Source of the DNA: an uncultured Bacillota bacterium
GTDB lineage: Bacteria > Sysuimicrobiota > Sysuimicrobiia > Sysuimicrobiales > Segetimicrobiaceae
DNA length: 64,000 nucleotides
Direction of reading: 5' to 3'
NCBI GenBank assembly: GCA_963787105.1
Contig: CAWBBU010000018.1
Coordinates: forward strand, 64,082 to 128,081
A program made the position numbers and the translations under genes. Shown piece by piece: positions 34,494 through 50,004 of the stretch. The notes beneath the pieces are model-generated. The model was not told the DNA's origin and ran no database searches. It saw only the letters and a list, made by a program, of their open reading frames with translations. How positions within the stretch are numbered: position 1 is the stretch's first letter; each line of letters opens with the position of its first letter.

Positions 34494-34766
34494 ATCGCAT
34501 CTCCCGGACGAAACGGTGAGATCACTGTCATGGCGCGGGCCGCGGTTTCGCCGGTGCCCGGACATCCGCAAGTGGCCTGTTGGACAGACGATCGTCCGGA
34601 CCCTTCACATACGGGGCCGCCCGCCGATCTCGAATTCGGCCGACTCATACCGTGCTCGATCACGGGGTAGACGTAAGGGACGTGTGCATCCACGCGGCAA
34701 TCGAGTACGTCGGCCCCATACGCGAATGCCACGTCGCCGGCTCCGTCCCGTCGCGCGCCCCCTGAG

Positions 34767-35652: not shown

Positions 35653-36410
35653 GCCTCCGTTCCCGGGGCAGCGGCTTCGTTGGACCTCATCCACCGCACC
35701 CACTCCGCGAGCGTCTGCCATGGTGCGGGCCCCGCGTCCTGCTCAAAGCACGCGGGACCGTTCCAGCCATTGAGCGCGCGCGTGACCGCTGCGAAGTTGA
35801 TCGCTCCGGGCGGCGACGCCGCGCCGTCCGGCAAGCCCTTCAAATGCACCATCGCGGTCACGTCGCGCACGTCCGCCACGATACGCGGGACGTCAAACCC
35901 CGCCTGCGCGGCGTTCCCAACGTCGACGTTCAAGCGCAGGCCCGGCACGCGGCGCACGAACTCCGCGAGCGCACGGAGATCGCTGCCGGGGCCGTTGCCG
36001 ATGTTCTCCAATACGAGCTGCACCCCGGCGTCCGCGGACGCACGCGCCCAGGTCGTGGCCAGGGACACGGCGCTGCTCCCAAGCGCGCCGAGATCGCCCG
36101 GGAAGATGCGGAGCATGCGCGCGCCGAGGGCTCGGGCGACCCCGAGGTCCGCCCGCAGCGGACTTTCCGCCCCCGCATCTGCCGGCTGGGCGGCGAGTGC
36201 GGTGTTGGTCGCGTAGATCGTGCTGAGGCCGTGCGCCGCGAGGATCTCGGCGACCTCCGCGGGAGAACGGCCCGCTCCCAAATAGTCCGGGCGCAGCTCG
36301 ACGGCGCGCAGCCCGAGCGCTTGGCAATGCCGGGCGACCATGTCCGGCGAGCTCTCGCTCGGCGCGGCCGACTCAAACACGACCGAACTGATCCCCAGTG
36401 TCAGGCTCAC
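35649..36410 (-). CDS. Xylose-isomerase-like TIM-barrel protein (sugar phosphate isomerase/epimerase family)
   Basis: 253-aa ORF. The GTG start overlaps the kdsB stop (GTGA). It has the general AP-endonuclease-2/TIM-barrel pattern (LRAVELRPDYL..., RMLRIFPG, LVLENIGNGPG). Confidence 0.65.
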   Translation of the reverse strand: MSLTLGISSVVFESAAPSESSPDMVARHCQALGLRAVELRPDYLGAGRSPAEVAEILAAHGLSTIYATNTALAAQPADAGAESPLRADLGVARALGARMLRIFPGDLGALGSSAVSLATTWARASADAGVQLVLENIGNGPGSDLRALAEFVRRVPGLRLNVDVGNAAQAGFDVPRIVADVRDVTAMVHLKGLPDGAASPPGAINFAAVTRALNGWNGPACFEQDAGPAPWQTLAEWVRWMRSNEAAAPGTEA

Positions 36411-37150
36411 GTCTTCGGAGCCGCCTTGGCGAGGATGGCCGCGACCACGTCGAGATCCGCCGGGGTGTCGACGCTCACGCCGGTGTATGGGAATCGCGTC
36501 TGGGACACTCGGATCCGGTGCCCGTGCTCCAGCGCCCGCAGCTGCTCCAGGGATTCGGTCTGTTCGAGCGGCGTCGGGGCGAGGCGCGTGAACTGCAGCA
36601 AAAACTCACGCCGGTACGCGTAGATGCCGATGTGCACCTGCGGGACCGCCACCCCCCTCACGCGCGGGTATGGGATCTGCGCGCGGGAGAAGTACAGCGC
36701 GCGACCGTTCAGGTCGGCGGCGACTTTCACGACGTTCGGGTTCTGGAACTCCTCGTCGGTGGTGATGGGCATCATGAGGGTCGCCATGTCGGCCTGCGGA
36801 TCGTCCCGCAGCAGCCCGATGACCTCGTCGACCATGCCGGGCTCGAGCAGGGGCTCATCGCCCTGCACGTTCACGACCACGTCGCACTCGATGCCGCGCG
36901 CGACCTCGGCCACCCGGTCCGTGCCGGTCGGGTGCGTCGTTGCGGTGATCCGCGCCTCGCCGCCGTGCGCGGCGACGGCTCGTTGAATACGTTCGTCGTC
37001 CGTCGCGACGACGACCTGGGTCACCGACTTCGCCGCGCGAGCGCGCTCCAGCACGTGGATGATCATGGGCTTGCCCGCGAGCACGGCCAGCGGCTTCCCT
37101 TCGAACCGCGTGGATCCGTATCGGGCCGGGATCACAACGAGCGCACGCAT
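36407..37150 (-). CDS. kdsB: 3-deoxy-manno-octulosonate cytidylyltransferase (CMP-Kdo synthetase)
   Basis: ATG 37150: MRALVVIPARYGSTRFEGKPL..GKPMIIHVLERA...VVVATDDERI...TGTDRVAEVA...VVNVQGDEPLL...ALYFSRAQIPY...IGIYAYRREFL...LEQLRALEHG..I. This is collinear with E. coli KdsB as I remember it. Confidence 0.85.
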   Translation of the reverse strand: MRALVVIPARYGSTRFEGKPLAVLAGKPMIIHVLERARAAKSVTQVVVATDDERIQRAVAAHGGEARITATTHPTGTDRVAEVARGIECDVVVNVQGDEPLLEPGMVDEVIGLLRDDPQADMATLMMPITTDEEFQNPNVVKVAADLNGRALYFSRAQIPYPRVRGVAVPQVHIGIYAYRREFLLQFTRLAPTPLEQTESLEQLRALEHGHRIRVSQTRFPYTGVSVDTPADLDVVAAILAKAAPKT

Positions 37151-37160: not shown

Positions 37161-38378
37161 TCACGCCGATGGGCGCGGCACGCCGCGCTCCGAGGTCCGC
37201 GCACCCCACCGCTCAGTCACGGACGCGTACACGCGCGAGCGGTCAAGCGGCGTCACCTGATTCACGATCCACTCGCGCATCGCGATGCCCTCCGGCGTCT
37301 CCTGCGGCGCCGTCATGAACTCCGCGACCAAGCCGAGCTCACGGATCACTCCCCGCGCCAGCGCGGGCCACACCGCTCCGATGTCCGCCGAGATCGGCAC
37401 GCTGCCCTCCAGGCGGGTGAAGCCGGACATCTCCATGCGAAACGGAATGCCCGTGCTCTTCGTCTTGGGAAGGCCCTTGTCGATGGCTCCCTGAATGCGT
37501 CCGCCCTCGCGTTCGAGACGCCACGCGTGTTCGAGCTGCGGATCGAGGTCGATGCGGATGAGCACCTTGCCCTCGAGCCGGTACGTCGGATAGTGTTCCC
37601 ACGCGGCCCAAATGCCGTGCCCCAGGTAGAGCTCGAACGGCCCGTCGTGGATCTCCTGGGTGTAGGCGACCGCGGACTCGATAATCACGTCGGCATCGGC
37701 GAGGATCCGCGCGTTGCGCGCCGTGCGCTGGCCGACCGGAATGCTGTCGGCGACGGCGGTCCCCACCATGCCGCCGCCGATGAGCTGCGGCACCGTCACC
37801 ATGACCGGGACGCCGCGGCGCGCGCCGGCCCCAAGCATGGTCGACGGGTGGCAGCCGAACCCGGCGACGAGCTCAAACGGTTCGCCGACGCTCTGGGCGA
37901 GCATGAGCAGCTCGCGGGCCACGCGCTCCGTGCGCAACCCCATCGGATACGCCATGTTGCCCGCCGCCTTGATGATTACCGCGCCGTCGGCCGCGCTCGC
38001 GCGCGCGTACAGGTCCCGGTCGAATGGCATTTCGCGCGCCACCCAGTCGAGCTGTTCCGGGGGCATCACCGTAATCTCGAACACGCCCCCGCGCGGCAGC
38101 AGCTCCGCGGGCAGCCCCAACGGAACGCCTTGGACGCGGCGCACCCGGTCCAGCGTCCCGGCCATCTCATGCGCCACAACCGCCGAGCTCGTGAGGACTC
38201 CGTCGACGACGCCGATGCGAATGAGCTCGGCGATGAGTGTGGTGACGCCTTCATGAAGGTTGGGGCCGCTGCCGACGGCAACCGCGACCCGCCCGCCGCG
38301 CCGCTTCGCGGCCACCACCGCGTCCACCGCCTGCGCGACGCGCGCTTCTACTTCGCTGGACAGTATGCCGTTCGCCAT
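37161..38378 (-). CDS. Conserved-looking hypothetical protein (405 aa), function unknown
   Basis: ATG 38378 within ORF 37161..38666, with GGAGG 12 nt upstream. It ends 10 nt before kdsB. GSGPNLHEGVTTLIAELIRIGVVDGVLTSSAVVAHE weakly recalls deoxyhypusine-synthase-like Rossmann proteins, but I cannot assign a family. Confidence 0.5.
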   Translation of the reverse strand: MANGILSSEVEARVAQAVDAVVAAKRRGGRVAVAVGSGPNLHEGVTTLIAELIRIGVVDGVLTSSAVVAHEMAGTLDRVRRVQGVPLGLPAELLPRGGVFEITVMPPEQLDWVAREMPFDRDLYARASAADGAVIIKAAGNMAYPMGLRTERVARELLMLAQSVGEPFELVAGFGCHPSTMLGAGARRGVPVMVTVPQLIGGGMVGTAVADSIPVGQRTARNARILADADVIIESAVAYTQEIHDGPFELYLGHGIWAAWEHYPTYRLEGKVLIRIDLDPQLEHAWRLEREGGRIQGAIDKGLPKTKSTGIPFRMEMSGFTRLEGSVPISADIGAVWPALARGVIRELGLVAEFMTAPQETPEGIAMREWIVNQVTPLDRSRVYASVTERWGARTSERGVPRPSA

Positions 38379-38652: not shown

Positions 38653-40285
38653 TCACGCCCGGCCACTGCGGAGCCGATGCAACCGCGCCATGACCTCCGT
38701 GCCGCCCTCGCCGAAGTAGCGCGCGGTCTCGACGTAGTCCGAGTACAGGCGCTCGTACACGCCTCGCGCGCCGGCGTCCGGTCGGTACCACACCCGGTCC
38801 CTGTTCCCCATGCGCTCGACGACGCCGGTCATGTCGGAAGTCTCCTCCGCCGCCGCCACCGCGTAAATCGCCGCGCCGACCGCGGACGCATCGGGGACAC
38901 GGGCCGCGGCCACGGGGCGCCCGGTCACGTCGGCCGTGATCTGGAGCAATAGGGGGTTGCGCTCGGCCAGCCCGCCGCAGGCGTGGAGGCCCGCGATCGA
39001 CACCCCGCCCGCCTCAAATGTCTCGATGACGCGGCGGGTCCCGTATGCCGTCGCTTCCAGGAGCGCGCGATAGATCTCCGCCGGCTCGGTCGTGAGGGTC
39101 AGCCCAAGCAGCATGCCGGACAGGGTGGCATCGACCAGCGGCGTGCGACACCCGTTCCACCAGTCGAGCGCGAGCAGTCCCGACGCTCCCGGCGCGATCG
39201 CGGCCGCCTCCCGACCGAGACGCTCGAAGACGTCTTGGTCTCCGTACCGACCCGGGACGGCCGTCCGAAGAAACCAGAGGAAGATGTCGCCGACCGACGC
39301 TTGACCGGCCTCGTACCCGAACAGTCCGGGAAGGATTCCGTCCTCGACGACTCCCGAGATGCCGCGAACCGGCTGCCGCCTGGCATCGACGAGGAGATGG
39401 CAGGTCGACGTCCCCATGATCATAACGAGCTGGCCGGCCTCCGACACCCCGAGCGCGGGAACGGCCGCGTGCGCGTCGATCGTCGCGACCGCGACCGGCA
39501 CGCCGCTGTTCAAGACCCGTCCGGTCCGCCCATGCGGGCGTGAGTCGGCCCGCGCGCGTACCGACGGGACGCGGTGACGCGGCGAGGCGATCCAGCAAGC
39601 CGGGCAGCGCGGGATCGAGTCCCCGCCAGAACTCGCGCGGAGGGTACCCGGAGTCCTTTTGCCAGTGCGCTTTGTACCCCGCCTGGCACGCGCTGCGCGC
39701 TTCGCTCCCCGTCAGTTGCCAGACGAGCCAGTCGCCGGCCTCAATCCAGCGCGCGGTAGACTGCGACACGGCGGGGGGCGCTTCGGCGAGCACTTGCCAC
39801 CCTTTGGCCCACATCCACTCCGATGAGGTCTTCCCCCCGTACCACGCAAGGAATTCACTCTCGGGCTGCGCCGCGCGATCGTTGATGCGGTCGGCATAGG
39901 GCTGCGCCGCGTGATGTTTCCAGAGCTTCGGCCATGCGTGCGGCTCGGCGGCGAACTCAGGAATCAGGCACAGGGGCGTGCCGTCCGCCGTCGTCGGCAG
40001 AACGGTGCAGGACGTACAGTCGAGCCCGATCCCGATCACATCGTCGGGGCTCCCGACGTCACCCATCGCGTGCAGCAGGCTGGCCGCGGCCTCGAGCCAG
40101 TCGCCGGGATGCTGCAACGCCCAATCAGGCGGCAGTCTCTCGGTCCCGCCGGGGAGCGTGCGGTCGATCACGCCGTGCGTGTATGGGTGCGTCGCCGTCG
40201 CGATCACGCGCCCGTCGGCCGCATCGACGAGTACCGCGCGCGCGGACTCGGTGCCGAAATCGAGGCCGATCGCGTGGCGGCCCAT
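38653..40285 (-). CDS. FGGY-family carbohydrate kinase (ribulokinase-like), one apparent frameshift
   Basis: ATG 40285: MGRHAIGLDFGTESARAVLVD... It continues in ORF 38653..39513 (VPVAVATIDAHAAVPALG...IMGTSTCHLL...GYEAGQASVGDIF...LALDWWNG.R), which is AraB-like. Break near 39510. Confidence 0.8.
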
Positions 40286-40299: not shown

Positions 40300-41724
40300 T
40301 TATGCGAAGACCCGGTAGTCGATCCCAAACATCTTCGCGAGCCACACGAGATCCGCGACGCAGTCGCCGTACACGCCGTGGATGTGGTTGCTGTCGTACT
40401 CGGACAAAAACACGTCGGGCGCGACCCGAAACCGTGCGAACGCGTGGGGCCACACCGGCGTCGTGGCCGCCGCCTTCTCCGCGGCCACCTTCGCGGGAAA
40501 CTTCACGAACTCTCCGGGCACGATCGCGAGCCAGTACTTCCCCTGCCGGCGGGCCAGTCTCGCCAGCGTGACGGGACCCGGCGCGGCGATGTGCATCACC
40601 GACGCGCCTCCGGCCGGAAAGTACACGTCGGCGGGATAGAGGTGCACGTGCCGCAAGTTCACGCTCGGGTCGAAGGAGTGCCCGGCGAAGTACGTCGCAT
40701 GCTCGCCCGAGTTGCAGAGATCCCAGACGTCGTCGCCCGCGTCGTAGTGGCGCACATCGGCAAACAGCACGGGCGTACCGGCGATGTGCTTGAAGAGCTC
40801 CATGGTCAGCGCGCCATCGCTGTCGGCCTCGGTCGCGCAGACGATCGGATCGTGAGGGCCTTCCCAGTCGTACGGGTCATTCAGCAGCGCCTCCGCGACG
40901 TCCATCGTGGCGAAGTGGTTCGTCATCTCGGGCTGGCCTTTGATCCCGCAGAAATTACACCGCCACTCGTCCAGGATCTCCCGCACGGCGAGATACGACT
41001 TCAGCTGGCGGCGCAGCAATTCCGGTGTTAACCGTTTGCCGTCGTAGTGAATCCGTGCGCCGTTTTGCTCAAGCCATCCGATGCCCGCGTTCACGCGCGC
41101 ATCGGGCATGGCCTCGGACCGGCGGACGATCTCGTACTGGTCGATATGCTCGATGTCGATCCCGAAGTCTCGGCGCCATTGGTCGAGCGCGGGGACCGCG
41201 GTGTACATGCCCATCGACCGTCCGCCGATGAGGCCGTACACTTCACCGCGCAACCGGTTCTTGGCCATCGACGCCCGCAGGAATGACAGCACCCGCTCGA
41301 ACACCGCCGCGTCGTCGATGTCCCCCGAGATGCGGCCGTGGAACACACCGACCTGGTCGAGGCTCCCCGCGGCGGCGAGCATCGCCACGAGACCCGGATA
41401 TTTCGGGTTCACGTTGCTGAGCAGCAGAATCGGTTCGGGCACGAACTGCGCGGCGATCGCCGAGAAGTGAGGAAACGCCCAGATGCCGTAGTTGAAGATG
41501 ACGGCTTCCACGTCCTGCGCGGCGAGGTACCGCCCTTCGCGCTGCGCAAGATCCGTCGTCCATACGATCTCGCGCCCGGTCACGACGTCCCACCCGACGG
41601 CCCTGAGCCGCTCCGCGAGCCGTTCCTGGAACTGCCGCGTCAGCGGCAGTAACGACTCGTGCATGTGGCTCCGGCCGTCTGAAAACGTCAGGATGCCTAC
41701 CTTCGGACGCTTCACCGCATCCAC
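40300..41724 (-). CDS. L-fucose/D-arabinose isomerase-family protein
   Basis: Intact 474-aa ORF. KVGILTFSDGRSHMHESL and the overall pattern match the short FucI-like isomerase family. The kinase gene starts 15 nt downstream. Confidence 0.7.
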   Translation of the reverse strand: MDAVKRPKVGILTFSDGRSHMHESLLPLTRQFQERLAERLRAVGWDVVTGREIVWTTDLAQREGRYLAAQDVEAVIFNYGIWAFPHFSAIAAQFVPEPILLLSNVNPKYPGLVAMLAAAGSLDQVGVFHGRISGDIDDAAVFERVLSFLRASMAKNRLRGEVYGLIGGRSMGMYTAVPALDQWRRDFGIDIEHIDQYEIVRRSEAMPDARVNAGIGWLEQNGARIHYDGKRLTPELLRRQLKSYLAVREILDEWRCNFCGIKGQPEMTNHFATMDVAEALLNDPYDWEGPHDPIVCATEADSDGALTMELFKHIAGTPVLFADVRHYDAGDDVWDLCNSGEHATYFAGHSFDPSVNLRHVHLYPADVYFPAGGASVMHIAAPGPVTLARLARRQGKYWLAIVPGEFVKFPAKVAAEKAAATTPVWPHAFARFRVAPDVFLSEYDSNHIHGVYGDCVADLVWLAKMFGIDYRVFA

Positions 41725-41832
41725 CCCCGTGCGGCCGGCCCCCTCGCGAACCGACCACAGCCCCGTTTGATGACTCAGACCATGCCCGACCCGTCTCTCC
41801 GGAACAGCGCGGAGCCCCGCGCCATCCTCTCT

Positions 41833-41844
41833 GAGAACGTTCTC
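41833..41844. promoter_or_regulatory. LacI-type operator candidate, site 1: perfect palindrome GAGAACGTTCTC
   Basis: Read directly (ctGAGAACGTTCTCta), 109 nt upstream of the isomerase start codon (41724, minus strand). The central CG and AACGTT core fit LacI-family operators. Confidence 0.6.
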
Positions 41845-42084
41845 TACTTCGGTAACCTACGAGCCCCTCCTCCTGGGAGCGGGCGGACATCAGCGGACGC
41901 GCGAGTCGGATATCCCAACTGCCAAGGCGGCGCGAGCGGCGACATGCTGGTGGTCGCGGGGCGACGGAAACGGGCCTTCCCGAGATGGTCGGTAACCCGA
42001 CCCGTGCTGCCCGCTGCGCTGACGCCGGTCCCTCCCGACGGGGAACCCTTGTAGGCACTCCGAACGGCCGGACGGCACGGGACG

Positions 42085-43013
42085 TCAGTGCGAAGCGTCG
42101 CCCTCGACGTCCGGCAGGCCGGCCGCGCGCAGAATTCGATTCATCAGACGATGGGTCTCCAACGCGTCGCGGGCCGGCGATCGGACGTCACCGCCGGACT
42201 CAACCGCACGAACAAAATCGTTCACTTCCTGCTGGAATCCGAACCGCTCCTGCGCGGTCATGAGACCGCCCGTGCGCGGAATCAACGATGTGATACGCGT
42301 CTCGCCGTCGCCGCTCGCCGCGAAACTCTCGGGCGCGTCGACTCTGGTGCTCTTTCCGCCGCCGTAGGCTTCGACGTGCTCCGTCCACTCGCCGCATGAG
42401 CGGTTCGCGATTAGGACGCCGATCGAGCGCGCAAAGCGAATATGGGCGACGCACGACGTCTCGTAGTAGGGATCGTCGAACTGGCTGGACGCGGTCACGT
42501 CCACGGCGTCCCCGCATATCCAACGCATCATGTCGACCATGTGGATGGCGTTATCGTAGGTCCCACGATAATCGACACCCGACCGGCACTTCTGGGCGAC
42601 GATCACATCCGGGGCCTGCTGCGCCCACGCCGCTTTCAGGGCTTCGTAGACCGGGGCATACCGGCGGTTGAACCCGACCATCAACAGCACGGCCCTGCGT
42701 TCGGCCGCCGCCACCATGCGTTCGGCATCGTGGAGCGTCGCGGCCATGGGCTTCTCGACGAAGACATGAATGCCGCGCTCGAGCAGCGGCACGGCAATCT
42801 CCGCGTGGGTCTCGGTACTCGTGAGGACAAACGCCGCGTCCGTGTCGATTTGATCGAGCGAGTCGTACACGCGGCCGATCCCGTACCGGTGCGCGGCACG
42901 GCTTGCGCTTTCGCCCGAACGGCTCATGATCCCCTCGACGCTACACGGGCTGTTCATGATCGCGGGCAGCAAGACTCGCGAAATATTCCCGCTCCAACAA
43001 TGGCGGCGCGCAT
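42085..43013 (-). CDS. Gfo/Idh/MocA-family oxidoreductase, one apparent frameshift near the N-terminus
   Basis: ATG 43013 preceded by AAGGAGGG: MRAAIVGAG, then after a break near 42993 GNISRVLLPAIMNSP...FVEKPMA...GFNRRYAP. Confidence 0.75.
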
Positions 43014-43129
43014 ATGGTCGGTGCCCTCCTTGAGTTTCCGGCCGATGCATTCTAGTCTACCGTCCTGCGCGTCCGCGGTGTATCCTTCGCACATCCGGTC
43101 GACGCTCAGAACGGCGGAGGACAAGCACA

Positions 43130-44137
43130 ATGGGACAGACACCCACGGTGGCCATGCTGATACCATACCCGACGCGGGCGGAGGTACTCACCGCGAACAT
43201 GGAGCGCCGCCTGGGGTCGATCGCCCGAGTCGTGTCAACGCCGGAGCAGGATCCGGATCGATGGGACCTCCGGGCGATGCTGACGGGTGCGGACGCCTGC
43301 CTGACGGGGTGGGGCACGCCGGCCCTGTCGGATGAACTGCTGGCCAGTGTGCCGACCATCAAGTTCGTGGCGCATACGGGCGCCAGCATCCGTCGCCTCG
43401 TTCCCCGCGCCGCGATCGAGCGCGGCCTTATCCTCTCACACGCGTCGTCGATGATCGCCGACGCCGTGGCCGAGATGGTGGTGCTGCAGGCGCTGCTGCA
43501 TGTGCGAAGGCTGCCTGACATGGACCGTGCGATCAAGCACGGGGCCGACTGGCAGGAGACCTTCGATCGATACCTCGGCAGGCAGCTCGGCGCGCTGACG
43601 GTCGGCATCGTCGGAGCCAGCCACGTGGGGAGGGCCGTCATTCGTCTCCTCAAGGCGTTTGGCAGTCGGGTGCGCGTGTACGATCCCACGCTCACCCAGA
43701 TCGAGGCGTCGCGGCTCGGGGTCGAACCGGTCGCGCTTGCCGAGTTGATGCGCTCATGCGATATCGTCAGCCTCCACGCACCCGTGCTGGCCGAAACCAT
43801 CGGAATGATCGGCGCCTCCGAGCTGGCGCTTATCCGCAACGGCGGGCTCTTTATCAACACCGCTCGGGCCGCATTGGTCGATAACACCGCGCTCCTCAGT
43901 CACCTCCGCGAGGGACGTTTTTCGGCCGCGTTGGACGTCTTCGAACAGGAGCCTCTTCCGGATGACAGCGAGCTCCGGCAGCTGCCGAACGTGGTACTGT
44001 CTCCCCACGCCGGCGGCCATACCGTTGACACCCAATTTCGACAAGGAGAAGCGATGGTGGCCGAACTGGAGCGGTTCTTCCGGGGAGAACCGCTGCGATT
44101 CGCTGTTGATCCCGCCGCGCTCTCGATCATGGCCTGA
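43130..44137 (+). CDS. D-isomer-specific 2-hydroxyacid dehydrogenase family protein
   Basis: 335-aa ORF with GGAGGA upstream. GIVGASHVGRAVIRLLKAFGSRVRVYDP (NAD site), ...SLHAPVL..T..MI and LSPHAGG are present. Confidence 0.8.
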   Translation: MGQTPTVAMLIPYPTRAEVLTANMERRLGSIARVVSTPEQDPDRWDLRAMLTGADACLTGWGTPALSDELLASVPTIKFVAHTGASIRRLVPRAAIERGLILSHASSMIADAVAEMVVLQALLHVRRLPDMDRAIKHGADWQETFDRYLGRQLGALTVGIVGASHVGRAVIRLLKAFGSRVRVYDPTLTQIEASRLGVEPVALAELMRSCDIVSLHAPVLAETIGMIGASELALIRNGGLFINTARAALVDNTALLSHLREGRFSAALDVFEQEPLPDDSELRQLPNVVLSPHAGGHTVDTQFRQGEAMVAELERFFRGEPLRFAVDPAALSIMA

Positions 44138-44211
44138 ATCGTTCGCCGAGGCGGTAAAGAGCATAGGCAATGCAGGAATTCCATATGACCCGTCGAACCA
44201 GCGCCCGAGAG

Positions 44212-44225
44212 TGAGAACGCTCTCA
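44212..44225. promoter_or_regulatory. LacI-type operator candidate, site 2: TGAGAACGCTCTCA
   Basis: Read directly. The 16-mer GTGAGAACGCTCTCAC is palindromic in 7 of 8 pairs and shares the GAGAACG half-site with sites 1 and 3. It lies 93 nt upstream of the sugar-binding protein ATG 44318. Confidence 0.55.
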
Positions 44226-44317
44226 CAATGGCCAGATATGGGTTCGAGGGGTCCATCGGCCAGGCGGTAAGCTCAGAAGGATCACCACAGCCCGTGGTTC
44301 CGGGGAGGTGTCGCAAT

Positions 44318-45580
44318 ATGAGATGGGTGACGTGTGTGATTGCAGCGGCCGTGATGGTCGTGTCTCTACCGTTTGCGGGAATGACGGCATCGCCGGTGGT
44401 CATCACGTCCTGGAACGGTGTGGGACCGCCGGAAAATGTCATCTTGTCCCAATTCACCAGGGACTTCAACACCAAGTACGCGGGGCAGATCCAGGTGACC
44501 GAGAACGTCACGAAGTGGGACACGCTGTACTCGCAGATTCTGACGGACTACCGGTCGGGCAATCCGCCGGATGTCTTGACCTTCGAGACGTCGGCGCTGC
44601 CGCAGTACGTGCACTTCGGCGTCCTGCAGCCGGTGGGCCCGCTGATGGCGCAGGCCGGTTTGAAGCAGTCAGATTTCGTTCCGGCAGTGTGGCGAAGCAC
44701 GTTCATCGGCGGTGTCCAGTACGCCGTCCCCCTCGACGTACATCCGTGGGGATTCTTTTACAACCGCAAGCTCTTCCAGGCGGCAGGTCTACCCGATCGC
44801 GCGCCGCGGAACATGGCGGAGTTTCTGAGCGACGCGCAAAAGCTGACCGTCGCCGGTACCGGCGGGGCACCCGACCAGTACGGATTTGGATTCAACTACA
44901 ACGGCGCGAATCCGAGCCGGCTGATGATCTCGCTGCTGGCGCAAAAGGGCAAGAACATCCTGTCGCCGGATAACAAGCGCGCCGTGTTCGACACCGCCGA
45001 CACCCGGGAAGTGCTGCAGTTCCTCTACGACCTCGTCTACAAGTACAAAGTGGTGCCGCAGCGCGAGACCGACGCGGTCGGAGACTTCAAGCGCGGCGCG
45101 ATCGCGATGCTCGTCACCGGCCCGTGGGAGATCCCAGACTTCAAGGGCGTGTCGGGGCTCGACTTTGCGACCGCCGCGATGCCGGTCTTTTACAACAAGC
45201 CCGGCGTGTGGGGCGACGCGCACGACCTGGTGCTGTCGAAGACAAACTCGCCCGAGCGCCAGAAGGCGGCGATGGAGTTCGCCGCCTACATCAGCAGCCG
45301 GGGATACGAGTGGACCACCCAGGCGGGGCACCTGCCCGTGCGCGAGGACGTCATCAACAACCCCCAGTTCAAGACGCTCGGGTACTGGCAGCCACTGGTC
45401 GCCGAGGAAAGTTACATGACGGTCTATCCGCCCATTGACCAGTTTTCTGAGATGTTCGGCCAGGACCCGACCGCGCCGCTTGTGAAGATGACGGAGTCGA
45501 TCCTGCTCAATCAAGGCGTCCATCGCAGCGGCGGTCACGCAGGCGCAGACCGAGTTCAACCGGTGCTCGCGCAGAAGTAG
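44318..45580 (+). CDS. ABC sugar transporter substrate-binding protein (family 1, CUT1-type)
   Basis: ATG 44318 with signal-like MRWVTCVIAAAVMVVSLPFAG. It shows the typical family-1 pattern (ITSWNG..., PDVLTFE, GPWEIPDF). The last 25 or so codons read better with a compensated frame excursion (see findings). Confidence 0.85.
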   Translation: MRWVTCVIAAAVMVVSLPFAGMTASPVVITSWNGVGPPENVILSQFTRDFNTKYAGQIQVTENVTKWDTLYSQILTDYRSGNPPDVLTFETSALPQYVHFGVLQPVGPLMAQAGLKQSDFVPAVWRSTFIGGVQYAVPLDVHPWGFFYNRKLFQAAGLPDRAPRNMAEFLSDAQKLTVAGTGGAPDQYGFGFNYNGANPSRLMISLLAQKGKNILSPDNKRAVFDTADTREVLQFLYDLVYKYKVVPQRETDAVGDFKRGAIAMLVTGPWEIPDFKGVSGLDFATAAMPVFYNKPGVWGDAHDLVLSKTNSPERQKAAMEFAAYISSRGYEWTTQAGHLPVREDVINNPQFKTLGYWQPLVAEESYMTVYPPIDQFSEMFGQDPTAPLVKMTESILLNQGVHRSGGHAGADRVQPVLAQK

Positions 45581-45626
45581 TGGCGCGCATGTACGAAGAA
45601 CCGCGCGCGCTGCGAAAGGCCACGCG

Positions 45627-46550
45627 GTGATCAGCAACGGGGAGGCGCGGATCGGGGTCGATCCGCGCCTCCCTACCCGTCGTAGGACTTCGCCGTTCCG
45701 ATCGGCGTGGGCGTGGGGGATGCTTGCGCCCTACCTCATTTGCCTCGTGCTGTTCTTCCTCGTGCCGTTCTTTTTTGCCGTCGCGATCAGCTTCACCCGA
45801 TGGCAGATCATCGGGCAGCCCGTGTTCATCGGGTTCGCGAACTATCTCCGCGCCGCCCAGGACCCGTCGGTGCGGCAAGCCATTGGGAACACGTTTTATT
45901 ACATGGCGCTCATGACGTCGACGCTGATGATCCTGGGACTCGGGCTGGCGCTGCTGCTCAACGCGCCGGTGCCGGGGCGGTATCTCGCCAGAACAGTCGT
46001 CGTGATGCCGTACGTGATCAGCGTCTCGGTCATGGGGATCCTCTGGCGTTGGATGTATGACCCGAACTTCGGCATCATCAACTACTATCTGGGCCGTCTC
46101 GGACTGCCGCGGTTATGGTGGCTCACGGACACCGTCCAGGCGATGCCGTCGATCGTCATCGCGGACTGGTGGTGGATCGCCAGTTTCACCACGGTGGTCT
46201 ACCTCGCCGGGCTCCAGGCGATCCCACGGGAGTTGTACGAGGCCGCCGAGGTCGACGGGGCGTCGGCGCGGAGCAAGTTCTGGCACGTGACACTCCCGGG
46301 CCTCCGTCCGGTCACGCTCTACGTGCTCATCCTCAACACGATCACATCGTTTCAAATGTTCGGCGAGTCGTTTGTGATGACCCAAGGCGGTCCGCTCGGC
46401 ACCACCACCACGCTGACGTATAAACTCTACGACGCCGGATTCTTCGATCTCCAGCTCGGCTACGCCGCCGCCCTGTCGGTGGTGTTTCTCATCGCCATCG
46501 TGGCCCTGACCGCCGTGGAGTTCCGGGTGCTCAAACTTGCTGGGGACTGA
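45627..46550 (+). CDS. ABC sugar transporter permease (MalF/UgpA-like)
   Basis: 307-aa ORF. AWAWGMLAPYLICLVLFFLVPFFFA and the EAA-loop region YEAAEVDGASARSKFWHVTLPGLRP. Confidence 0.85.
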   Translation: MISNGEARIGVDPRLPTRRRTSPFRSAWAWGMLAPYLICLVLFFLVPFFFAVAISFTRWQIIGQPVFIGFANYLRAAQDPSVRQAIGNTFYYMALMTSTLMILGLGLALLLNAPVPGRYLARTVVVMPYVISVSVMGILWRWMYDPNFGIINYYLGRLGLPRLWWLTDTVQAMPSIVIADWWWIASFTTVVYLAGLQAIPRELYEAAEVDGASARSKFWHVTLPGLRPVTLYVLILNTITSFQMFGESFVMTQGGPLGTTTTLTYKLYDAGFFDLQLGYAAALSVVFLIAIVALTAVEFRVLKLAGD

Positions 46551-47409
46551 CGCCGTCTCGTCCCGTTGGCTGACGCCTGCGCGGGTGCGGCGCGTGGTGT
46601 TGACGTGCCTGATCGCACTGGTCATCGTCGCCTACGCGGGGCCGACGCTGTGGCTGGTGTCGACCTCCGTGACCGAGGAGGGGCGTGTCTTCACCCGGAT
46701 CCCGCAGTGGATTCCCCATCCGATCACCATCGCCAACTACCAGTTCGCGTTTCTCACGTATCCGTTGGGACGATGGTTTGTGAACAGCGCGGTCGTCTCA
46801 TTGGTGACCGTGGCGTTGTGCGTGCTCATCAACGTGCCTGCGGGGTATGCGTTTGCCCGGCACCGCTTCCCCGGAGATGGGATCCTCTTTTGGCTCACGC
46901 TGGCCTCGGTCATGGTGCCGGTGCAGGCCTACTTGGTTCCCATGTACCTGCTCTTTACGCAATTCGGGCTGATCAACACGCTCACCGGATTGATTCTGCC
47001 GTTCCTGTCGAACGGGTTCGGCGTATTTCTGATGCGGCAGTTTATCCAGCAGATTCCACCTGAACTGGAAGAGGCGGCCATCATTGATGGCGCGTCCCGC
47101 GTGGTCGTGCTGTGGCGGGTCGTTGTGCCGCTGATCACCCCAGCGATCGCGACGCTCGTGATCTTCCGCTTCATGCAGAGCTGGAATTCGTTCGCGTGGC
47201 CGCTGGTCGCGGCGAGCAGCGACAGGTCGATCACCTTGCCCGTGGGACTGGCGCTGCACGTGTTCGGCGTGGTCGGCTCCGCGTCCGCGCAACCGCGGTT
47301 CGGCCTCTCGATGGCCGCATCGTTTGTCTCGATGGCGCCCGCGATTGTGGTGTTCCTACTGCTGCAGCGCTACTTCGTTGAAGGCATGGCGTCGTCGGGG
47401 CTCAAGTAG
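46537..47409 (+). CDS. ABC sugar transporter permease (MalG/UgpE-like)
   Basis: 290-aa ORF overlapping the previous gene by 14 nt. EAA loop: LEEAAIIDGASRVVVLWRVVVPL. Confidence 0.85.
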   Translation: MLGTDAVSSRWLTPARVRRVVLTCLIALVIVAYAGPTLWLVSTSVTEEGRVFTRIPQWIPHPITIANYQFAFLTYPLGRWFVNSAVVSLVTVALCVLINVPAGYAFARHRFPGDGILFWLTLASVMVPVQAYLVPMYLLFTQFGLINTLTGLILPFLSNGFGVFLMRQFIQQIPPELEEAAIIDGASRVVVLWRVVVPLITPAIATLVIFRFMQSWNSFAWPLVAASSDRSITLPVGLALHVFGVVGSASAQPRFGLSMAASFVSMAPAIVVFLLLQRYFVEGMASSGLK

Positions 47410-48232
47410 CGAGGCCGGCATTCACGCCCTGTCCTGCATCGACCCAGGGCACCGGATGAGCAAACCGAGCGGCGTACACGCGCGTGAGATGGTCGACCGC
47501 CAGAGGAAGCAGCTCGAGGCCGCGCCCCTCCCCCTGGAACGAAATGGTCAGGTCCTGATGGTAGCCGAGCGCCCCGAGCGCCCATAGGAGACCGTACCAC
47601 CACAGCGTTCCGTCACCCGGATAGGTCGTCTGTTGGCGGCCGAGAAGAGACCGTACGTCCGTCGCGTGGACGTGTCCGATTCTCCGATTGAGCACATACG
47701 CCGACCGCACGGGATCCTCTCCGACCAACACGGGCGCCGCCGTGTCGAAGGAGGCCTGGATCCAAGGAGTGGCCGCCGCATCGATCAGCGCCCGCACACG
47801 CACGACCGACCCCGGCAGCGGCTCGTTCGCCAGCAGGAGGTGAACACCGGCCTCTTTGGCCTGCTGAAGAAACGTCCACTGAGGGTCCCCGGTCGGCGGG
47901 AGCATGCGCATGCGCTTCGCGCCGAGCGCCCCCGCGGTTGCAAGCGCCGCACCTGCCGGCTCTATGTCGCCGTGACCGGATGGGAACCGTAGACCGCTTC
48001 CATAAACGACCGTACAACCCGCCCGATTCGCAGCGTCGCGGGTCGCCGCGGCGTCTTGCGTCCACTCGGGGTCGACCTCAACGCCCCGGCACCCGAGCGC
48101 CGCCGCCTGTTGCAGAAACTGCTCGATCGTGACTCGGCCGGACCGTAACTCCGCGGCCGCGACGGCCGTGTGGACGGCAAGGCGCATCCGGGAGCGCCCC
48201 TGAGCGGCGGGACCGGACGACGTCGTGTTCAT
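47402..48232 (-). CDS. Xylose-isomerase-like TIM-barrel protein
   Basis: ATG 48232 overlaps the upstream BNR gene stop (ATGA). RGVEVDPEW..., AKRMRMLP, VHLLLANEP, IGHVHATD pattern. Confidence 0.6.
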   Translation of the reverse strand: MNTTSSGPAAQGRSRMRLAVHTAVAAAELRSGRVTIEQFLQQAAALGCRGVEVDPEWTQDAAATRDAANRAGCTVVYGSGLRFPSGHGDIEPAGAALATAGALGAKRMRMLPPTGDPQWTFLQQAKEAGVHLLLANEPLPGSVVRVRALIDAAATPWIQASFDTAAPVLVGEDPVRSAYVLNRRIGHVHATDVRSLLGRQQTTYPGDGTLWWYGLLWALGALGYHQDLTISFQGEGRGLELLPLAVDHLTRVYAARFAHPVPWVDAGQGVNAGLAT

Positions 48233-49185
48233 CCCTCGAGCGCCGCCTGGTCGAACGTGAGGTGCGCGATCGCGAACCGTCGATCGGTATAGAGCAGATG
48301 CAGCATGCCGTCCGAGCCCTGGATGATGGCGGGATACGAATATTCCCCCGGCTCGGTCTCGACGTCGCGGGCGACGCGCCACGACTTTCCCCGGTCCTCG
48401 GACACCGCGAGTGTTAGGGGAGACCGATCGTACAACGCATTGTTGAACGCCAGCACCAGGCGGTCATCGGGCGTGCGCACCATGTCCACGCCGGCGTCCG
48501 GGTTAGGGAGCGCGATCGGTGTCGGCGATGACCACGTGCGACCGCGATTGGTCGACTGTGCCCGCCACAGCGGCCCGCGGCCCTGCGTCCGCATCAGGCA
48601 CACCAGCTCGCCGTCCGGAAACTCGACGATCGTGGGCTGCTCGTTCCCCGGCGTGGACCGGATGGGCATAGAGGTCTCCCATGACTGGCCTTCATCCCCG
48701 GAGATCAAGCAGACCGAGGCGTGCACACCCGTGTCATCGTACAGCGGGAGTAAAAGCTCGCCGTTCGACAGGACGCACGGCGTGTTCCGAGGCATCAACC
48801 CCGTCTCGTCGCGAAGCACGTGCCGGGGCCCGAACGTCACGCCGCCGTCGGTTGACACCCGGTACTTCAGCTTGCACGCGCCCCAATTGAGAACCTCGTA
48901 CATCACGGAGTAAAACAGTCGGAGTTCCCCGGGCCTCACTGAGAACAGCACGGGATTGCCGACCGTGCACCCCTCGGTCTCCACGAGCACAACGGCTTCC
49001 GTCCAAGTTCCCGTGGACCGCCGAAAGAACGCACCGAGGATTACAACGTCGGACGCGTACTCGTGCGAGCCCCCATACCACGCAGCCATGAGGTCACCGC
49101 TGGGCAATTCGCACACCGTGGCCGCGTGCACCGAAGGGTGGTCAGGAGAATCGCCGAACACGACGCGTTTCTCCCATGTCGCCAT
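48229..49185 (-). CDS. BNR/Asp-box repeat sialidase-fold (GH33-like) protein, no signal peptide seen
   Basis: Intact 318-aa ORF with four Asp-boxes read directly: STDGGVTF, SGDEGQSW, STNRGRTW, SEDRGKSW. Confidence 0.8.
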   Translation of the reverse strand: MATWEKRVVFGDSPDHPSVHAATVCELPSGDLMAAWYGGSHEYASDVVILGAFFRRSTGTWTEAVVLVETEGCTVGNPVLFSVRPGELRLFYSVMYEVLNWGACKLKYRVSTDGGVTFGPRHVLRDETGLMPRNTPCVLSNGELLLPLYDDTGVHASVCLISGDEGQSWETSMPIRSTPGNEQPTIVEFPDGELVCLMRTQGRGPLWRAQSTNRGRTWSSPTPIALPNPDAGVDMVRTPDDRLVLAFNNALYDRSPLTLAVSEDRGKSWRVARDVETEPGEYSYPAIIQGSDGMLHLLYTDRRFAIAHLTFDQAALEG

Positions 49186-49249
49186 GCTTGTCGCTCCATC
49201 GACATGATGTCACCAGGACGATCGGGTGCAGGTAGACAACCCCCGCATA

Positions 49250-49261
49250 GAGAACGTTCTC
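49250..49261. promoter_or_regulatory. LacI-type operator candidate, site 3: perfect palindrome GAGAACGTTCTC
   Basis: Read directly (taGAGAACGTTCTCac), 65 nt upstream of the BNR gene start (49185, minus strand). It is identical to site 1 over the 12-bp core; the 16-mer matches the reverse complement of site 1 at 15 of 16 positions. Confidence 0.6.
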
Positions 49262-49680
49262 ACTGTCTCGATGTGATCCCTTTCGCCTCTCCCAATCCGC
49301 CGCTGCCGCGCCGCTGAGCCGTCCATGGCCGAATCGCGAAACAACTCGTCGTCCATGGCAGTCGCATGGTCGTGTTATTGGACAGTGCGGCCTTCGTGAG
49401 CAATCGCTGGGTCGTCATGGCGCCGGCATCTTCTTCGGAGCGGCAGCGAGAACAGCGTCCTTGGTCTGCTGAGCAGCGACGGCCGTCGTCGTCCCGTGTG
49501 ATATGTAGCCAGCAGGCGTCAACTCGATCGTGCGCTCTTCCATCCTCCAAAAGGAGGGGATGAGGAGACCGTTTGCTACTCGTAGGTCCGGCACGACCTG
49601 CTACAATTGCGGCGCAAGGGTCGCGGGTGTACGAACGGGATCGTTGCTCCGTTATCAACCGACATAGGGGAGGGATACTG

Positions 49681-49953
49681 ATGGCCGAAAGCAAGCTTGC
49701 CGCATTGGCCCCAAAATTCAAGGAAAATCCCGGGCTGAAAGACCAGATTAAGAAGGCCACGAGCCTTGATCAGGTTGTTTCCATTATGAACTCTGCGGGT
49801 GTCCAGATCACGAAGGCCGAACTCCTCAAGTCCGAAGCGCAGAGAGTCCTCGCGCTCAGCGACGCGCAACTGGAAGCCGTTGTCGTCAGCCATAGCTATA
49901 CGACCGACACGTTTATGGGCTGCGCCACGTGGGTGTTTCAGTGCTGCGGCTGA
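49681..49953 (+). CDS. lanA: Lanthipeptide precursor with Nif11-type leader (90 aa)
   Basis: ATG 49681 (GGAGG about 10 nt upstream) inside ORF 49573..49953. Sequence: MAESKLAALAPKFKENPGLKDQIKKATSLDQVVSIMNSAGVQITKAELLKSEAQRVLALSDAQLEAVVV-SHSYTTDTFMGCATWVFQCCG. It has Nif11 leader architecture and a Ser/Thr/Cys-rich C-terminus, and sits beside lanM. Confidence 0.8.
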   Translation: MAESKLAALAPKFKENPGLKDQIKKATSLDQVVSIMNSAGVQITKAELLKSEAQRVLALSDAQLEAVVVSHSYTTDTFMGCATWVFQCCG

Positions 49954-50004
49954 TTTCTTGCCGCACGAGTTTTGAATCTGTGCGATAACGCACTGTGACG
50001 TTTC

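What the first reader, a model, noticed from the sequence alone, without database searches (positions are those of the whole stretch)
41833..49261. The same palindrome GAGAACGTTCTC precedes three separate transcription units
Perfect 12-bp palindromes lie at 41833-41844 (109 nt upstream of the isomerase-kinase-...-aldolase operon) and at 49250-49261 (65 nt upstream of the BNR/TIM-barrel pair). Extended to 16 nt, one matches the reverse complement of the other at 15 of 16 positions. A near-copy, TGAGAACGCTCTCA, lies at 44212-44225, 93 nt upstream of the ABC importer. The central-CG AACGTT core is the LacI-family operator style, and the only LacI gene (33230-34493) ends the long operon. This ties the three units into one regulon directly from the sequence.
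Basis: seen in the sequence. Interest (0 to 1): 0.65.

Follow-up and report, generated by a model that had tools for sequence, protein, structure and literature searches.

The report
LacI repressor operators of a sugar-acid regulon
Three near-identical 14-16 bp palindromes are most likely the binding sites of the neighbouring LacI-type repressor, which would switch three adjacent sugar-utilisation gene groups on and off together; this is an ordinary kind of bacterial switch, here found in an uncultivated soil phylum.

Summary
GAGAACGTTCTC occurs exactly at 41833-41844 and 49250-49261, and TGAGAACGCTCTCA at 44212-44225. These are the only three matches to TGAGAACGTTCTCA in 64 kb, even when 3 mismatches are allowed. 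About 0.01 matches with at most 1 mismatch are expected by chance.

All three sites lie in non-coding gaps:
- 109 nt upstream of the FucI-like isomerase operon
- 93 nt upstream of the ABC importer
- 65 nt upstream of the BNR/TIM-barrel pair

The window has one LacI-family gene (33230-34495, minus strand).

The comparative evidence supports the interpretation. Among 72 related loci, 24 carry an ortholog of this LacI (55-93% identity, near-invariant DNA-binding domain). Those 24 hold 32 matches to the window-derived consensus; 48 loci without the ortholog hold 3. The sites sit in front of orthologous isomerase-kinase-ABC-BNR-aldolase operons, in front of TRAP and TTT carboxylate transporter operons, and in front of lacI itself. 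A 93%-identical syntenic relative keeps sites 1 and 2 in place.

The motif, tTGTGAnAACGTTnTCACAa, is a typical even LacI-family palindrome with a central CG.

Verdict: a standard local LacI repressor-operator regulon, and a new member of a known kind, in Candidatus Sysuimicrobiota (CSP1-3). Binding, effector and promoters remain untested. The regulated pathway, possibly Kdo-like sugar-acid catabolism, is more interesting than the switch.

The parts
41831..41846 (.). Operator O1: CTGAGAACGTTCTCTA (perfect 12-bp palindrome core at 41833-41844). It lies in the 360-nt gap between the Gfo/Idh/MocA stop and the isomerase start, 109 nt upstream of the isomerase start codon.
   Evidence: It is conserved exactly in L068/L069 within a 26-nt invariant block, while the rest of the gap is about 80-87% identical.
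44211..44226 (.). Operator O2: GTGAGAACGCTCTCAC (one central-half mismatch). It lies in the 180-nt gap between the 2-hydroxyacid dehydrogenase stop and the ABC binding-protein start, 93 nt upstream of the ATG at 44318.
   Evidence: It is conserved in L068/L069 inside a block of about 65 nt of perfect identity.
49248..49263 (.). Operator O3: TAGAGAACGTTCTCAC (perfect 12-bp core at 49250-49261). It lies 65 nt upstream of the BNR_2 gene start (49185, minus strand) and about 420 nt from a divergent lanthipeptide-precursor-like ORF.
   Evidence: The contigs of the close relatives end before this region, so conservation of this site could not be tested. BNR orthologs sit in the operator-controlled isomerase operon in at least 9 relatives.
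33230..34495 (-). LacI/GalR-family regulator, the proposed repressor. Core residues 1-337 are intact. A +1 insertion near 33487 replaces the last ~13 residues with an out-of-frame tail of about 85 residues.
   Evidence: Pfam LacI HTH plus Peripla_BP_1/3. Below the cut-offs of all NCBIfam equivalogs; best is RbsR at 234 bits against 531. 93% identical over 337 aa to P0001. Frameshift. It is the only LacI gene in the window.
40300..41724 (-). Short FucI-like sugar isomerase (474 aa), the first gene after O1.
   Evidence: Pfam Fucose_iso_N1/N2/C. Distant from solved L-fucose and D-arabinose isomerases, E about 1e-21. Far below the NCBIfam FucI cut-off.
38653..40285 (-). FGGY-family sugar kinase, split into two frames by a +1 insertion near 39513.
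   Evidence: Pfam FGGY_N and FGGY_C fall in different frames. Relatives have a single frame. Indel map.
37161..38378 (-). Conserved protein of unknown function (405 aa) with a deoxyhypusine-synthase/LOR-SDH-like fold.
   Evidence: No Pfam, NCBIfam or PDB sequence hit. More than 3900 homologs. AlphaFold model pLDDT 92.7. Foldseek best match is deoxyhypusine synthase, TM about 0.43-0.55.
36407..37150 (-). CMP-Kdo synthetase (KdsB)-type cytidylyltransferase.
   Evidence: Pfam CTP_transf_3. NCBIfam KdsB models are passed: 300 bits against a cut-off of 193, and TIGR00466 at 225 against 155.
35649..36410 (-). Xylose-isomerase-like TIM-barrel protein.
   Evidence: Pfam AP_endonuc_2.
34767..35652 (-). 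DHDPS/N-acetylneuraminate-lyase-family aldolase, with a +1 frameshift near 35028.
   Evidence: Pfam DHDPS matches only profile positions 2-204 of 289. NCBIfam DapA/NanA-like, below cut-offs. An intact 293-aa ortholog is present in L068. Indel map.
44318..47409 (+). ABC importer downstream of O2: solute-binding protein 44318-45580 and permeases 45627-46550 and 46537-47409. No ATPase gene is adjacent.
   Evidence: Pfam SBP_bac_1/8 and BPD_transp_1 twice.
47402..49185 (-). Unit downstream of O3: cytoplasmic BNR_2 sialidase-like beta-propeller (48229-49185) and a xylose-isomerase-like TIM-barrel protein (47402 to about 48240).
   Evidence: Pfam BNR_2 at 219 bits and AP_endonuc_2. Distant sialidase/anhydrosialidase PDB hits. 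No signal peptide in the translation.
42085..44137 (.). Divergent pair without any operator: Gfo/Idh/MocA oxidoreductase (42085-43050, minus) and 2-hydroxyacid dehydrogenase (43130-44137, plus). Each is co-directional with, and upstream of, an operator-preceded unit.
   Evidence: Pfam. No matrix hit of 9 bits or more in 43051-43129.

Best explanation
The three palindromes are operators of the LacI/GalR-family repressor encoded at 33230-34495.

Proposed mechanism:
- A repressor dimer binds each 14-16 bp site. One helix-turn-helix contacts each TGAGAAC half-site, and the hinge helices sit over the central CG.
- Without its sugar effector, the bound repressor blocks transcription initiation or elongation into three units: (i) isomerase - kinase - unknown protein - KdsB - TIM barrel - aldolase (- lacI); (ii) the ABC importer; (iii) the BNR/TIM-barrel pair.
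- The effector, an imported sugar acid or a breakdown product, releases the repressor, and the three units are induced together.

What is shown:
- the sites, their statistical significance and their non-coding placement
- the domain make-up of the regulator
- co-occurrence and co-placement of regulator orthologs and the motif across many genomes

What is inferred:
- physical binding, repression rather than activation, and the identity of the effector
- promoter positions
- lacI being co-transcribed with unit (i)

The pathway is also inferred. A Kdo-like ulosonic acid or its glycoside would be imported. The BNR protein would hydrolyse it. The DHDPS-family lyase would split it into pyruvate plus an aldose. 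The aldose would then be isomerised and phosphorylated.
For: Statistics in the window:
- Three sites with at most 1 mismatch, against 0.01 expected.
- There are no other hits even at 3 mismatches, and there is a 9-bit gap to the next matrix score.

Regulator:
- LacI HTH plus sugar-binding domains, with full-length similarity to RbsR, PurR and CcpA structures.
- It is the single LacI gene in the window.

Comparative evidence:
- Using a consensus taken only from the window's three sites, 21 of 24 loci with a LacI ortholog (at least 50% identity) carry 32 hits at up to 2 mismatches. The 48 loci without the ortholog carry 3. One of those three is L009, a 2-kb fragment cut 146 nt upstream of the isomerase. 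Shuffles give 0.7.
- The matrix version gives 41 against 3.
- Sites lie 20-75 nt upstream of the isomerase start, in the lacI-isomerase divergent gap, in L005-L013 and L033-L045.
- Further sites precede a TRAP DctP operon and a TctC-TctB-TctA-aldolase operon.
- In L070-72 two sites lie in the binding-protein/lacI divergent gap, which indicates autoregulation there.
- Isomerase, kinase, ABC permeases, BNR and aldolase form a single operator-preceded operon in many relatives. In the window they are split, and each piece has its own operator.
- The syntenic relatives L068/L069 (LacI 93% identical) keep O1 and O2 in invariant blocks.
- The DNA-binding domain is near-invariant over 54 orthologs: VSVATAARALGGYGYVS ... 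IARSMIKG.

Fit to the family:
- The motif tTGTGAnAACGTTnTCACAa, derived from 40 distinct sites, is an even palindrome with a central CG. The sites lie 65-109 nt from start codons.
- Both properties match the family-wide rules in PMC4052901. Central CG was found for 1173 of 1303 regulators. More than 75% of sites lie between -140 and -30. About 90% of regulators are local and 72% are autoregulated.
Against: - There is no experimental binding, footprint or expression data. The phylum is uncultivated.
- No sigma-70-like promoter was found near any site, so the mode of repression (promoter occlusion or roadblock) is open.
- No operator precedes lacI in the window: there is no hit of 9 bits or more in 34496-34766.
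- In L070-72 the unknown-KdsB-TIM-aldolase operon lacks a site. KdsB, TIM and the unknown protein therefore belong to the regulon only through their operon position in the window and L068.
- The hinge residue that intercalates at the CG step is Met (ARSM). PurR, LacI and CcpA have Leu, as I recall it.
- The window's LacI has a frameshifted C-terminal tail, and the kinase and aldolase are frameshifted. The system may be decaying in this genome, or the assembly may contain errors.
- The site fits the Firmicute cre consensus with one mismatch, so a global regulator cannot be excluded from sequence alone.
Confidence: 0.8

Rival explanations
1. The sites are catabolite-responsive elements (cre-like) bound by a global CcpA-type LacI-family regulator encoded elsewhere in the genome. 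They would mediate carbon catabolite control, not pathway-specific induction.
For: TGAGAACGTTCTCA differs from the Firmicute cre consensus TGWAANCGNTNWCA (recalled from my own knowledge) at one position. CcpA structures are among the top sequence matches of the local regulator's family. The phylum belongs to Bacillati.
Against: - The motif tracks the presence of the local LacI ortholog. In high-GC relatives without the ortholog there is 1 hit in 220 kb. Those loci include isomerase-kinase operons behind sugar ABC transporters (L001-4, L012, L027-32). Ortholog-bearing loci have 30 hits in 372 kb.
- The local regulator scores 177 bits on the CcpA equivalog model, against a cut-off of 442.
- The rest of the 64-kb window has no site, although it contains no other obvious sugar operon.
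Confidence: 0.06
2. The palindromes are operators, but of a different, paralogous LacI-family regulator encoded outside the window. The local LacI would recognise another, unnoticed sequence.
For: LacI paralogs are numerous in soil bacteria and their motifs resemble each other. No operator lies directly upstream of the local lacI.
Against: In 24 independent loci the ortholog of this particular LacI is adjacent to the motif. Often the motif lies in the lacI/target divergent gap, or 30 nt before the lacI ATG. The orthologs' DNA-binding domain is nearly invariant, in parallel with the conserved motif core. No other palindrome is shared by the three gaps.
Confidence: 0.08
3. The repeats are not regulatory. 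They would be chance palindromes, relics of duplicated intergenic DNA, or targets of a restriction-modification or other DNA-processing system.
For: The core contains AACGTT, a 6-bp palindrome of the kind restriction enzymes recognise. The three gaps were not tested for function.
Against: - The chance expectation is 0.01.
- The flanks of the three sites are unrelated, so they are not duplicated segments.
- The sites occur only in non-coding DNA at promoter-proximal distance, and they are conserved with the regulator across distant genomes whose intergenic regions are not homologous.
- There is no terminator-like T-run or loop and no Rfam match.
Confidence: 0.03

Closest known systems
Local LacI/GalR-family sugar-utilisation repressors with even, CG-centred palindromic operators, as catalogued by comparative genomics in Ravcheev et al. 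2014 (PMC4052901)
   Same: - Two-domain regulator (HTH plus periplasmic-binding-protein fold).
- A 14-20 bp even palindrome with a central CG.
- Sites 30-140 nt upstream of start codons.
- A small regulon of one to a few adjacent operons made of transporters and catabolic enzymes.
- Frequent autoregulation, seen here in relatives L070-72 and in the divergent lacI-isomerase arrangements.
   Different: - The orthologous group comes from an uncultivated phylum (Ca. Sysuimicrobiota/CSP1-3) and from MAGs labelled Armatimonadota, and it matches no NCBIfam equivalog.
- The regulated gene set (short FucI-like isomerase, FGGY kinase, BNR_2, DHDPS-family lyase, KdsB, DHS-fold unknown) was not found in my literature searches as a LacI regulon.
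- In the window lacI sits at the 3' end of the operon without its own operator.
E. coli PurR and RbsR (closest solved structures and closest NCBIfam models)
   Same: Full-length alignment at E 1e-52 to 1e-57. The operator core AACGTT with a central CG is the same as in the PurR box ACGCAAACGTTTGCGT and in the RbsR operator; both operator sequences are recalled from my own knowledge, not tested here.
   Different: - Scores are far below the equivalog cut-offs: 234 against 531 for RbsR and 226 against 501 for PurR.
- The outer half-site bases differ (TGAGAAC rather than GCAAAC).
- PurR needs a corepressor, whereas the gene content here points to an inducer-released repressor.
- The hinge residue is Met rather than Leu.
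CcpA-cre catabolite control of Firmicutes
   Same: The site fits TGWAANCGNTNWCA with one mismatch. The regulator belongs to the same family.
   Different: The regulator is not a CcpA equivalog (177 bits against 442). The site distribution follows the local regulator rather than sugar operons in general. No HPr-dependent features were examined.

Membership tests
LacI/GalR-family repressor-operator system | Regulator with an N-terminal LacI-type HTH and a periplasmic-binding-protein-like effector domain | tested here: met
   PF00356 (48 bits against a cut-off of 27), PF00532 and PF13377. Full-length alignment to RbsR, PurR and CcpA structures.
LacI/GalR-family repressor-operator system | Even palindromic operator of about 14-22 bp with a central CG | tested here: met
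   O1 and O3 have perfect 12-bp palindromes centred on CG. O2 has one mismatch. The symmetrised profile of 40 sites is TGAnAACGTTnTCA. The family rule is from PMC4052901.
LacI/GalR-family repressor-operator system | Sites in non-coding DNA about 30-140 nt upstream of regulated start codons | tested here: met
   The distances are 109, 93 and 65 nt (with the gene map). In relatives the sites lie 20-75 nt upstream of the isomerase gene.
LacI/GalR-family repressor-operator system | Regulator orthologs and motif co-occur across genomes, next to orthologous target genes | tested here: met
   32 hits in 24 ortholog-bearing loci against 3 in 48 loci without. The matrix version gives 41 against 3. Targets.
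LacI/GalR-family repressor-operator system | Hinge-helix residue (Leu in LacI, PurR and CcpA) that inserts at the central CpG | tested here: inconclusive
   The hinge motif IARSMIKG is conserved in 54 orthologs, with Met at the corresponding place. Equivalence to Leu54/56 rests on recalled alignments, not on a structure.
LacI/GalR-family repressor-operator system | Sequence-specific DNA binding that is relieved (or enhanced) by a small-molecule effector | not testable with these tools
   This needs EMSA or footprinting with purified protein and candidate sugars.
CcpA/cre global catabolite control | Regulator is a CcpA equivalog | tested here: not met
   TIGR01481 scores 177 bits against a cut-off of 442.
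CcpA/cre global catabolite control | Sites spread over many unrelated catabolic operons, independent of a local regulator | tested here: not met
   There is one hit in 220 kb of high-GC related loci that lack the LacI ortholog but carry sugar ABC/isomerase operons. The test is limited to fetched loci and is not a whole genome.
RbsR / PurR / CytR / GalR equivalogs | Score above the curated NCBIfam equivalog cut-off | tested here: not met
   The best is RbsR at 234 bits against 531. All others are also below cut-off.

The most novel reading that the evidence does not exclude
The operator motif marks a previously undescribed, LacI-controlled pathway for scavenging a Kdo-like 3-deoxy-ulosonic acid in an uncultivated Bacillati phylum.

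- Import would run through ABC, TRAP or TTT transporters.
- A cytoplasmic sialidase-like BNR hydrolase would release the acid.
- A DHDPS-family lyase would split it into pyruvate plus an aldose.
- A short FucI-like isomerase and an FGGY kinase would feed the aldose into central metabolism.
- A 'catabolic' KdsB and a widespread deoxyhypusine-synthase-fold enzyme of unknown function would carry out an unknown activation or modification step.

The gene trio unknown - KdsB-like - DHDPS recurs next to a TRAP transporter and an IclR regulator in a Spirochaetales contig.
Probability: 0.3. Interest if true: 0.55.

Novelty: new member of a known kind. Interest (0 to 1): 0.3.

Why it matters
The switch itself is textbook. 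Its value is practical.
- It gives a sequence-level definition of a regulon in Candidatus Sysuimicrobiota (CSP1-3), a phylum with no cultured member, using a motif that transfers across at least 24 loci.
- The motif can be used to list the full regulon in any genome of the clade.
- It functionally links genes that annotation leaves unconnected: a short FucI-like isomerase, a cytoplasmic BNR protein, a KdsB in a catabolic context, and a conserved protein of unknown function with more than 3900 homologs.
- It supplies a simple in vitro assay, release of the repressor from a 16-bp duplex, to identify the pathway's substrate.

Tried and rejected
- **Looser pattern.** GAGAACGNTCTC at up to 2 mismatches gave 27 hits against 23 expected, so it is uninformative.
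- **Promoter and terminator scan of 41600-50100.** No sigma-70-like promoter was found, and the terminator-like hits were not near the sites. My manual search for -35/-10 hexamers around O1-O3 was inconclusive. In relatives L010 and L008 the right operator half contains a -10-like hexamer (TATCAT, TACCAT) 17-18 nt after a TTGCGT/TTGCAG. This is my reading, not a test.
- **Rfam scan of 41000-50500.** Nothing was found, so no riboswitch explains the long leaders.
- **Extra operators.** I looked in front of lacI, in the Gfo/2-hydroxyacid-dehydrogenase divergent gap, and before the unknown-KdsB operon of L070. None scored 9 bits or more.
- **Closest isomerase relatives.** L001-4, L012 and L027-32 (86-90% identity) have the isomerase directly behind ABC permeases, with no LacI ortholog and no motif. 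This first looked like non-conservation. It turned out to be a different regulatory arrangement.
- **Source contig.** Exact-sequence look-ups of window proteins to find the source contig failed.
- **Sequence searches for the 405-aa unknown protein.** Pfam, NCBIfam and PDB gave nothing significant. Only fold comparison gave a distant deoxyhypusine-synthase-like match.
- **Literature.** Searches for a described Kdo catabolic regulon or a LacI regulon of this composition found none.
- **Conservation of O3.** I ran no further search on testing this site in a close relative.

Full report
**1. The observation**

GAGAACGTTCTC occurs exactly twice in the 64-kb window, at 41833-41844 and 49250-49261. 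No dinucleotide shuffle out of 100 produced a match. TGAGAACGCTCTCA lies at 44212-44225.

Extended to 16 nt, site 1 is CTGAGAACGTTCTCTA. The reverse complement of site 3 is GTGAGAACGTTCTCTA. They agree at 15 of 16 positions.

Against the 14-mer consensus TGAGAACGTTCTCA, these three are the only matches in the window even when 3 mismatches are allowed, and each has a single mismatch. At up to 1 mismatch 0.01 matches are expected, and no shuffle gave 3. A 16-nt weight matrix scores the three sites 20.4-23.3 bits, and the next best position in the window scores 11.3.

**2. Gene map**

The DNA is 62-71% G+C. Third-position GC and Pfam/NCBIfam searches give the following map.

Minus strand, from O1 downstream:
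- short FucI-like isomerase, 40300-41724
- FGGY kinase, 38653-40285
- unknown protein, 37161-38378
- KdsB-type cytidylyltransferase, 36407-37150, which passes NCBIfam KdsB cut-offs
- xylose-isomerase-like TIM barrel, 35649-36410
- DHDPS/NanA-family aldolase, 34767-35652
- LacI-family regulator, 33230-34495

Upstream of the isomerase operon there is a 360-nt gap, which holds site 1. Beyond it lies a co-directional Gfo/Idh/MocA oxidoreductase (42085-43050, minus). That gene is divergent from a 2-hydroxyacid dehydrogenase (43130-44137, plus). A 180-nt gap follows, which holds site 2.

After site 2 comes an ABC binding protein (44318-45580) and two permeases (to 47409). Convergent with these are a TIM-barrel gene and a cytoplasmic BNR_2 sialidase-like gene (47402-49185, minus). 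Site 3 lies 65 nt upstream of the BNR start.

Only one LacI-family gene is present in the window.

**3. Comparative test**

Searching public genomes and metagenomes with the isomerase gave 67 loci. Five more came from the two closest LacI homologs. Named relatives belong to Candidatus Sysuimicrobiota, formerly CSP1-3 (PMC11604079, listed). Some MAGs are labelled Armatimonadota or simply 'bacterium'.

Twenty-four loci carry an ortholog of the window's LacI (55-93% identity over more than 250 residues). I used a consensus taken only from the window's three sites, at up to 2 mismatches.
- The 24 ortholog-bearing loci hold 32 hits, and 21 of the 24 have at least one.
- The 48 loci without the ortholog hold 3 hits.
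- One of those three is L009, a 2-kb fragment that ends 146 nt upstream of the isomerase gene.
- Shuffles of the ortholog-bearing loci give 0.7 hits.
- A matrix scan gives 41 against 3.
- Among high-GC loci only, the counts are 30 hits in 372 kb against 1 hit in 220 kb.

Placement is as informative as the count.
- In L005-L013 and L033-L045 the site lies in the gap between a divergent lacI and the isomerase gene, 20-75 nt before the isomerase start.
- In L008, L013 and L039 two further sites precede a TRAP DctP-DctM operon and a TctC-TctB-TctA-aldolase operon.
- In L070-72 (LacI 77% identical) two sites lie between lacI and a divergent ABC binding-protein operon. One of them is 30 nt before the lacI ATG.
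- L068 and L069 (LacI 93% identical, same gene order as the window) keep O1 and O2 at the same places. O1 sits inside a 26-nt invariant block and O2 inside a block of about 65 nt, within gaps that otherwise diverge.

In many relatives the isomerase, kinase, ABC permeases, BNR protein and often the aldolase form one operator-preceded operon. In the window these genes are split into three units, and each unit has its own operator. This is the strongest argument that the three units form one regulon.

Forty distinct sites give the symmetrised motif tTGTGAnAACGTTnTCACAa. The DNA-binding domain of 54 orthologs is almost invariant: VSVATAARALGGYGYVS and IARSMIKG.

**4. Mechanism**

The anatomy matches family-wide rules drawn from 1303 LacI-family regulators (PMC4052901).
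- Motifs are even palindromes with a central CG (1173 of 1303 regulators).
- More than 75% of sites lie between -140 and -30 relative to the start codon.
- About 90% of regulators are local.
- 72% are autoregulated.

I therefore assign the sites as operators bound by a dimer of the local LacI protein, which would be released by a pathway sugar. Binding, the direction of control, the effector and promoter positions are inferred, not shown.

No sigma-70-like promoter was detected, and no Rfam element lies in the leaders. Sites 1 and 2 each follow a co-directional gene that has no operator of its own. They could therefore act at dedicated promoters or as roadblocks to read-through. 'Three separate transcription units' remains plausible but unproven.

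No operator precedes lacI in the window. Its expression would come from read-through of unit (i), from an unregulated promoter in the gap of about 270 nt between the aldolase and lacI genes, or from both.

**5. Rivals**

- *A cre/CcpA-like global system.* The site fits the recalled consensus TGWAANCGNTNWCA with one mismatch, so this is the main alternative. Three results argue against it. The motif follows the local regulator. It is absent from related sugar operons that lack the regulator (L001-4, L012, L027-32). The regulator is far below the CcpA equivalog cut-off.
- *A paralogous LacI encoded elsewhere.* This cannot be excluded without the whole genome, but the consistent adjacency argues against it.
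- *Chance, or a non-regulatory repeat.* The statistics and the conservation exclude this.

**6. What the regulon may do**

This section is inference. The conserved core consists of importers (ABC, and in relatives TRAP and TTT, which typically carry carboxylates), a cytoplasmic sialidase-like BNR protein, a NanA/DapA-family lyase, a FucI-like isomerase and an FGGY kinase. It resembles sialic-acid catabolism with a neutral aldose as the product.

A bona fide KdsB in the window points to Kdo. Under that reading Kdo would be split into D-arabinose plus pyruvate. D-arabinose would be isomerised to D-ribulose and then phosphorylated. The isomerase is only distantly related to characterised L-fucose and D-arabinose isomerases, so substrate assignments are tentative.

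**7. Novelty and score**

This is a new member of a well-known kind of system, in an uncultivated phylum. The finding is sound but not surprising. Interest: 0.3.

The most novel reading not excluded is that the motif delimits an undescribed ulosonic-acid pathway that includes a catabolic KdsB and a DHS-fold enzyme of unknown function. I give that a probability of about 0.3.

Noticed in passing
window 37161-38378 (-): A 405-aa protein with no Pfam, NCBIfam or PDB sequence match has more than 3900 homologs. They are about 60% identical across Chloroflexi, Bacteroidota, Spirochaetes and Hydrogenedentes. The AlphaFold model is confident (pLDDT 92.7). Its only fold resemblance is distant, to deoxyhypusine synthase / ArgZ LOR-SDH domains (TM about 0.43-0.55). 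The gene is repeatedly next to a KdsB-like cytidylyltransferase and a DHDPS-family aldolase. One example is a Spirochaetales contig with an IclR regulator and a TRAP transporter (L073).
   Followed up: partly
window 36407-37150 (-): A cytidylyltransferase that passes the NCBIfam KdsB (CMP-Kdo synthetase) cut-offs sits inside a LacI-controlled, catabolic-looking operon and not in an LPS or capsule biosynthesis cluster. Its role there is unexplained.
   Followed up: no
window 39513, 35028, 33487: Relative to the 91-93% identical contig L068, the window has single-base insertions that break the reading frames of the FGGY kinase, the DHDPS-family aldolase and the C-terminal tail of LacI. None lies in a homopolymer run. 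These are either assembly errors or gene decay of the regulon in this genome.
   Followed up: partly
window 50018-53388 (-): A class II lanthipeptide synthetase (LanM: DUF4135 plus LANC_like) is split into two overlapping ORFs, 52426-53388 and 50018-52468. This is another apparent frameshift.
   Followed up: no
window 49681-49953 (+): This ORF encodes MAESKLAALAPKFKENPGLKDQIKKATSLDQVVSIMNSAGVQITKAELLK...SHSYTTDTFMGCATWVFQCCG. It looks like a Nif11-type leader fused to a Cys/Thr/Ser-rich core, that is, a lanthipeptide precursor, and it is convergent with LanM. The leader assignment is from memory and was not tested. It shares the 495-bp divergent gap with the BNR gene, but it lies about 420 nt from operator O3.
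   Followed up: no
L001-L004, L012, L027-L032: The closest isomerase relatives (86-90% identity) have the isomerase-kinase pair directly behind a sugar ABC transporter. They have no LacI ortholog and no motif within up to 10 kb. The same enzymes are evidently under a different, unidentified regulator there.
   Followed up: partly
L070 3452-4549 and 14056-15138: The contig with the 77%-identical LacI carries two paralogs of the unknown DHS-fold protein. One is in the ABC-transporter operon, together with AIRC-like and Asn_synthase-like genes. The other is in the KdsB-TIM-aldolase operon. The latter operon has no operator.
   Followed up: no
window 44160-44229 and 41820-41850: The non-coding blocks around O2 (about 65 nt) and O1 (26 nt, GGTTACCGAAGTAGAGAACGTTCTCA) are perfectly conserved with L068, while the neighbouring non-coding DNA diverges. 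They probably include promoter elements that the sigma-70 consensus scan did not recognise.
   Followed up: partly
window 12372-25056: An unrelated cluster holds a GntR/FCD regulator, a PmbA/TldD-like protein, two family-5 (peptide/opine-type) solute-binding proteins, Opp-type permeases and an amidohydrolase. No LacI-type site is present there.
   Followed up: no
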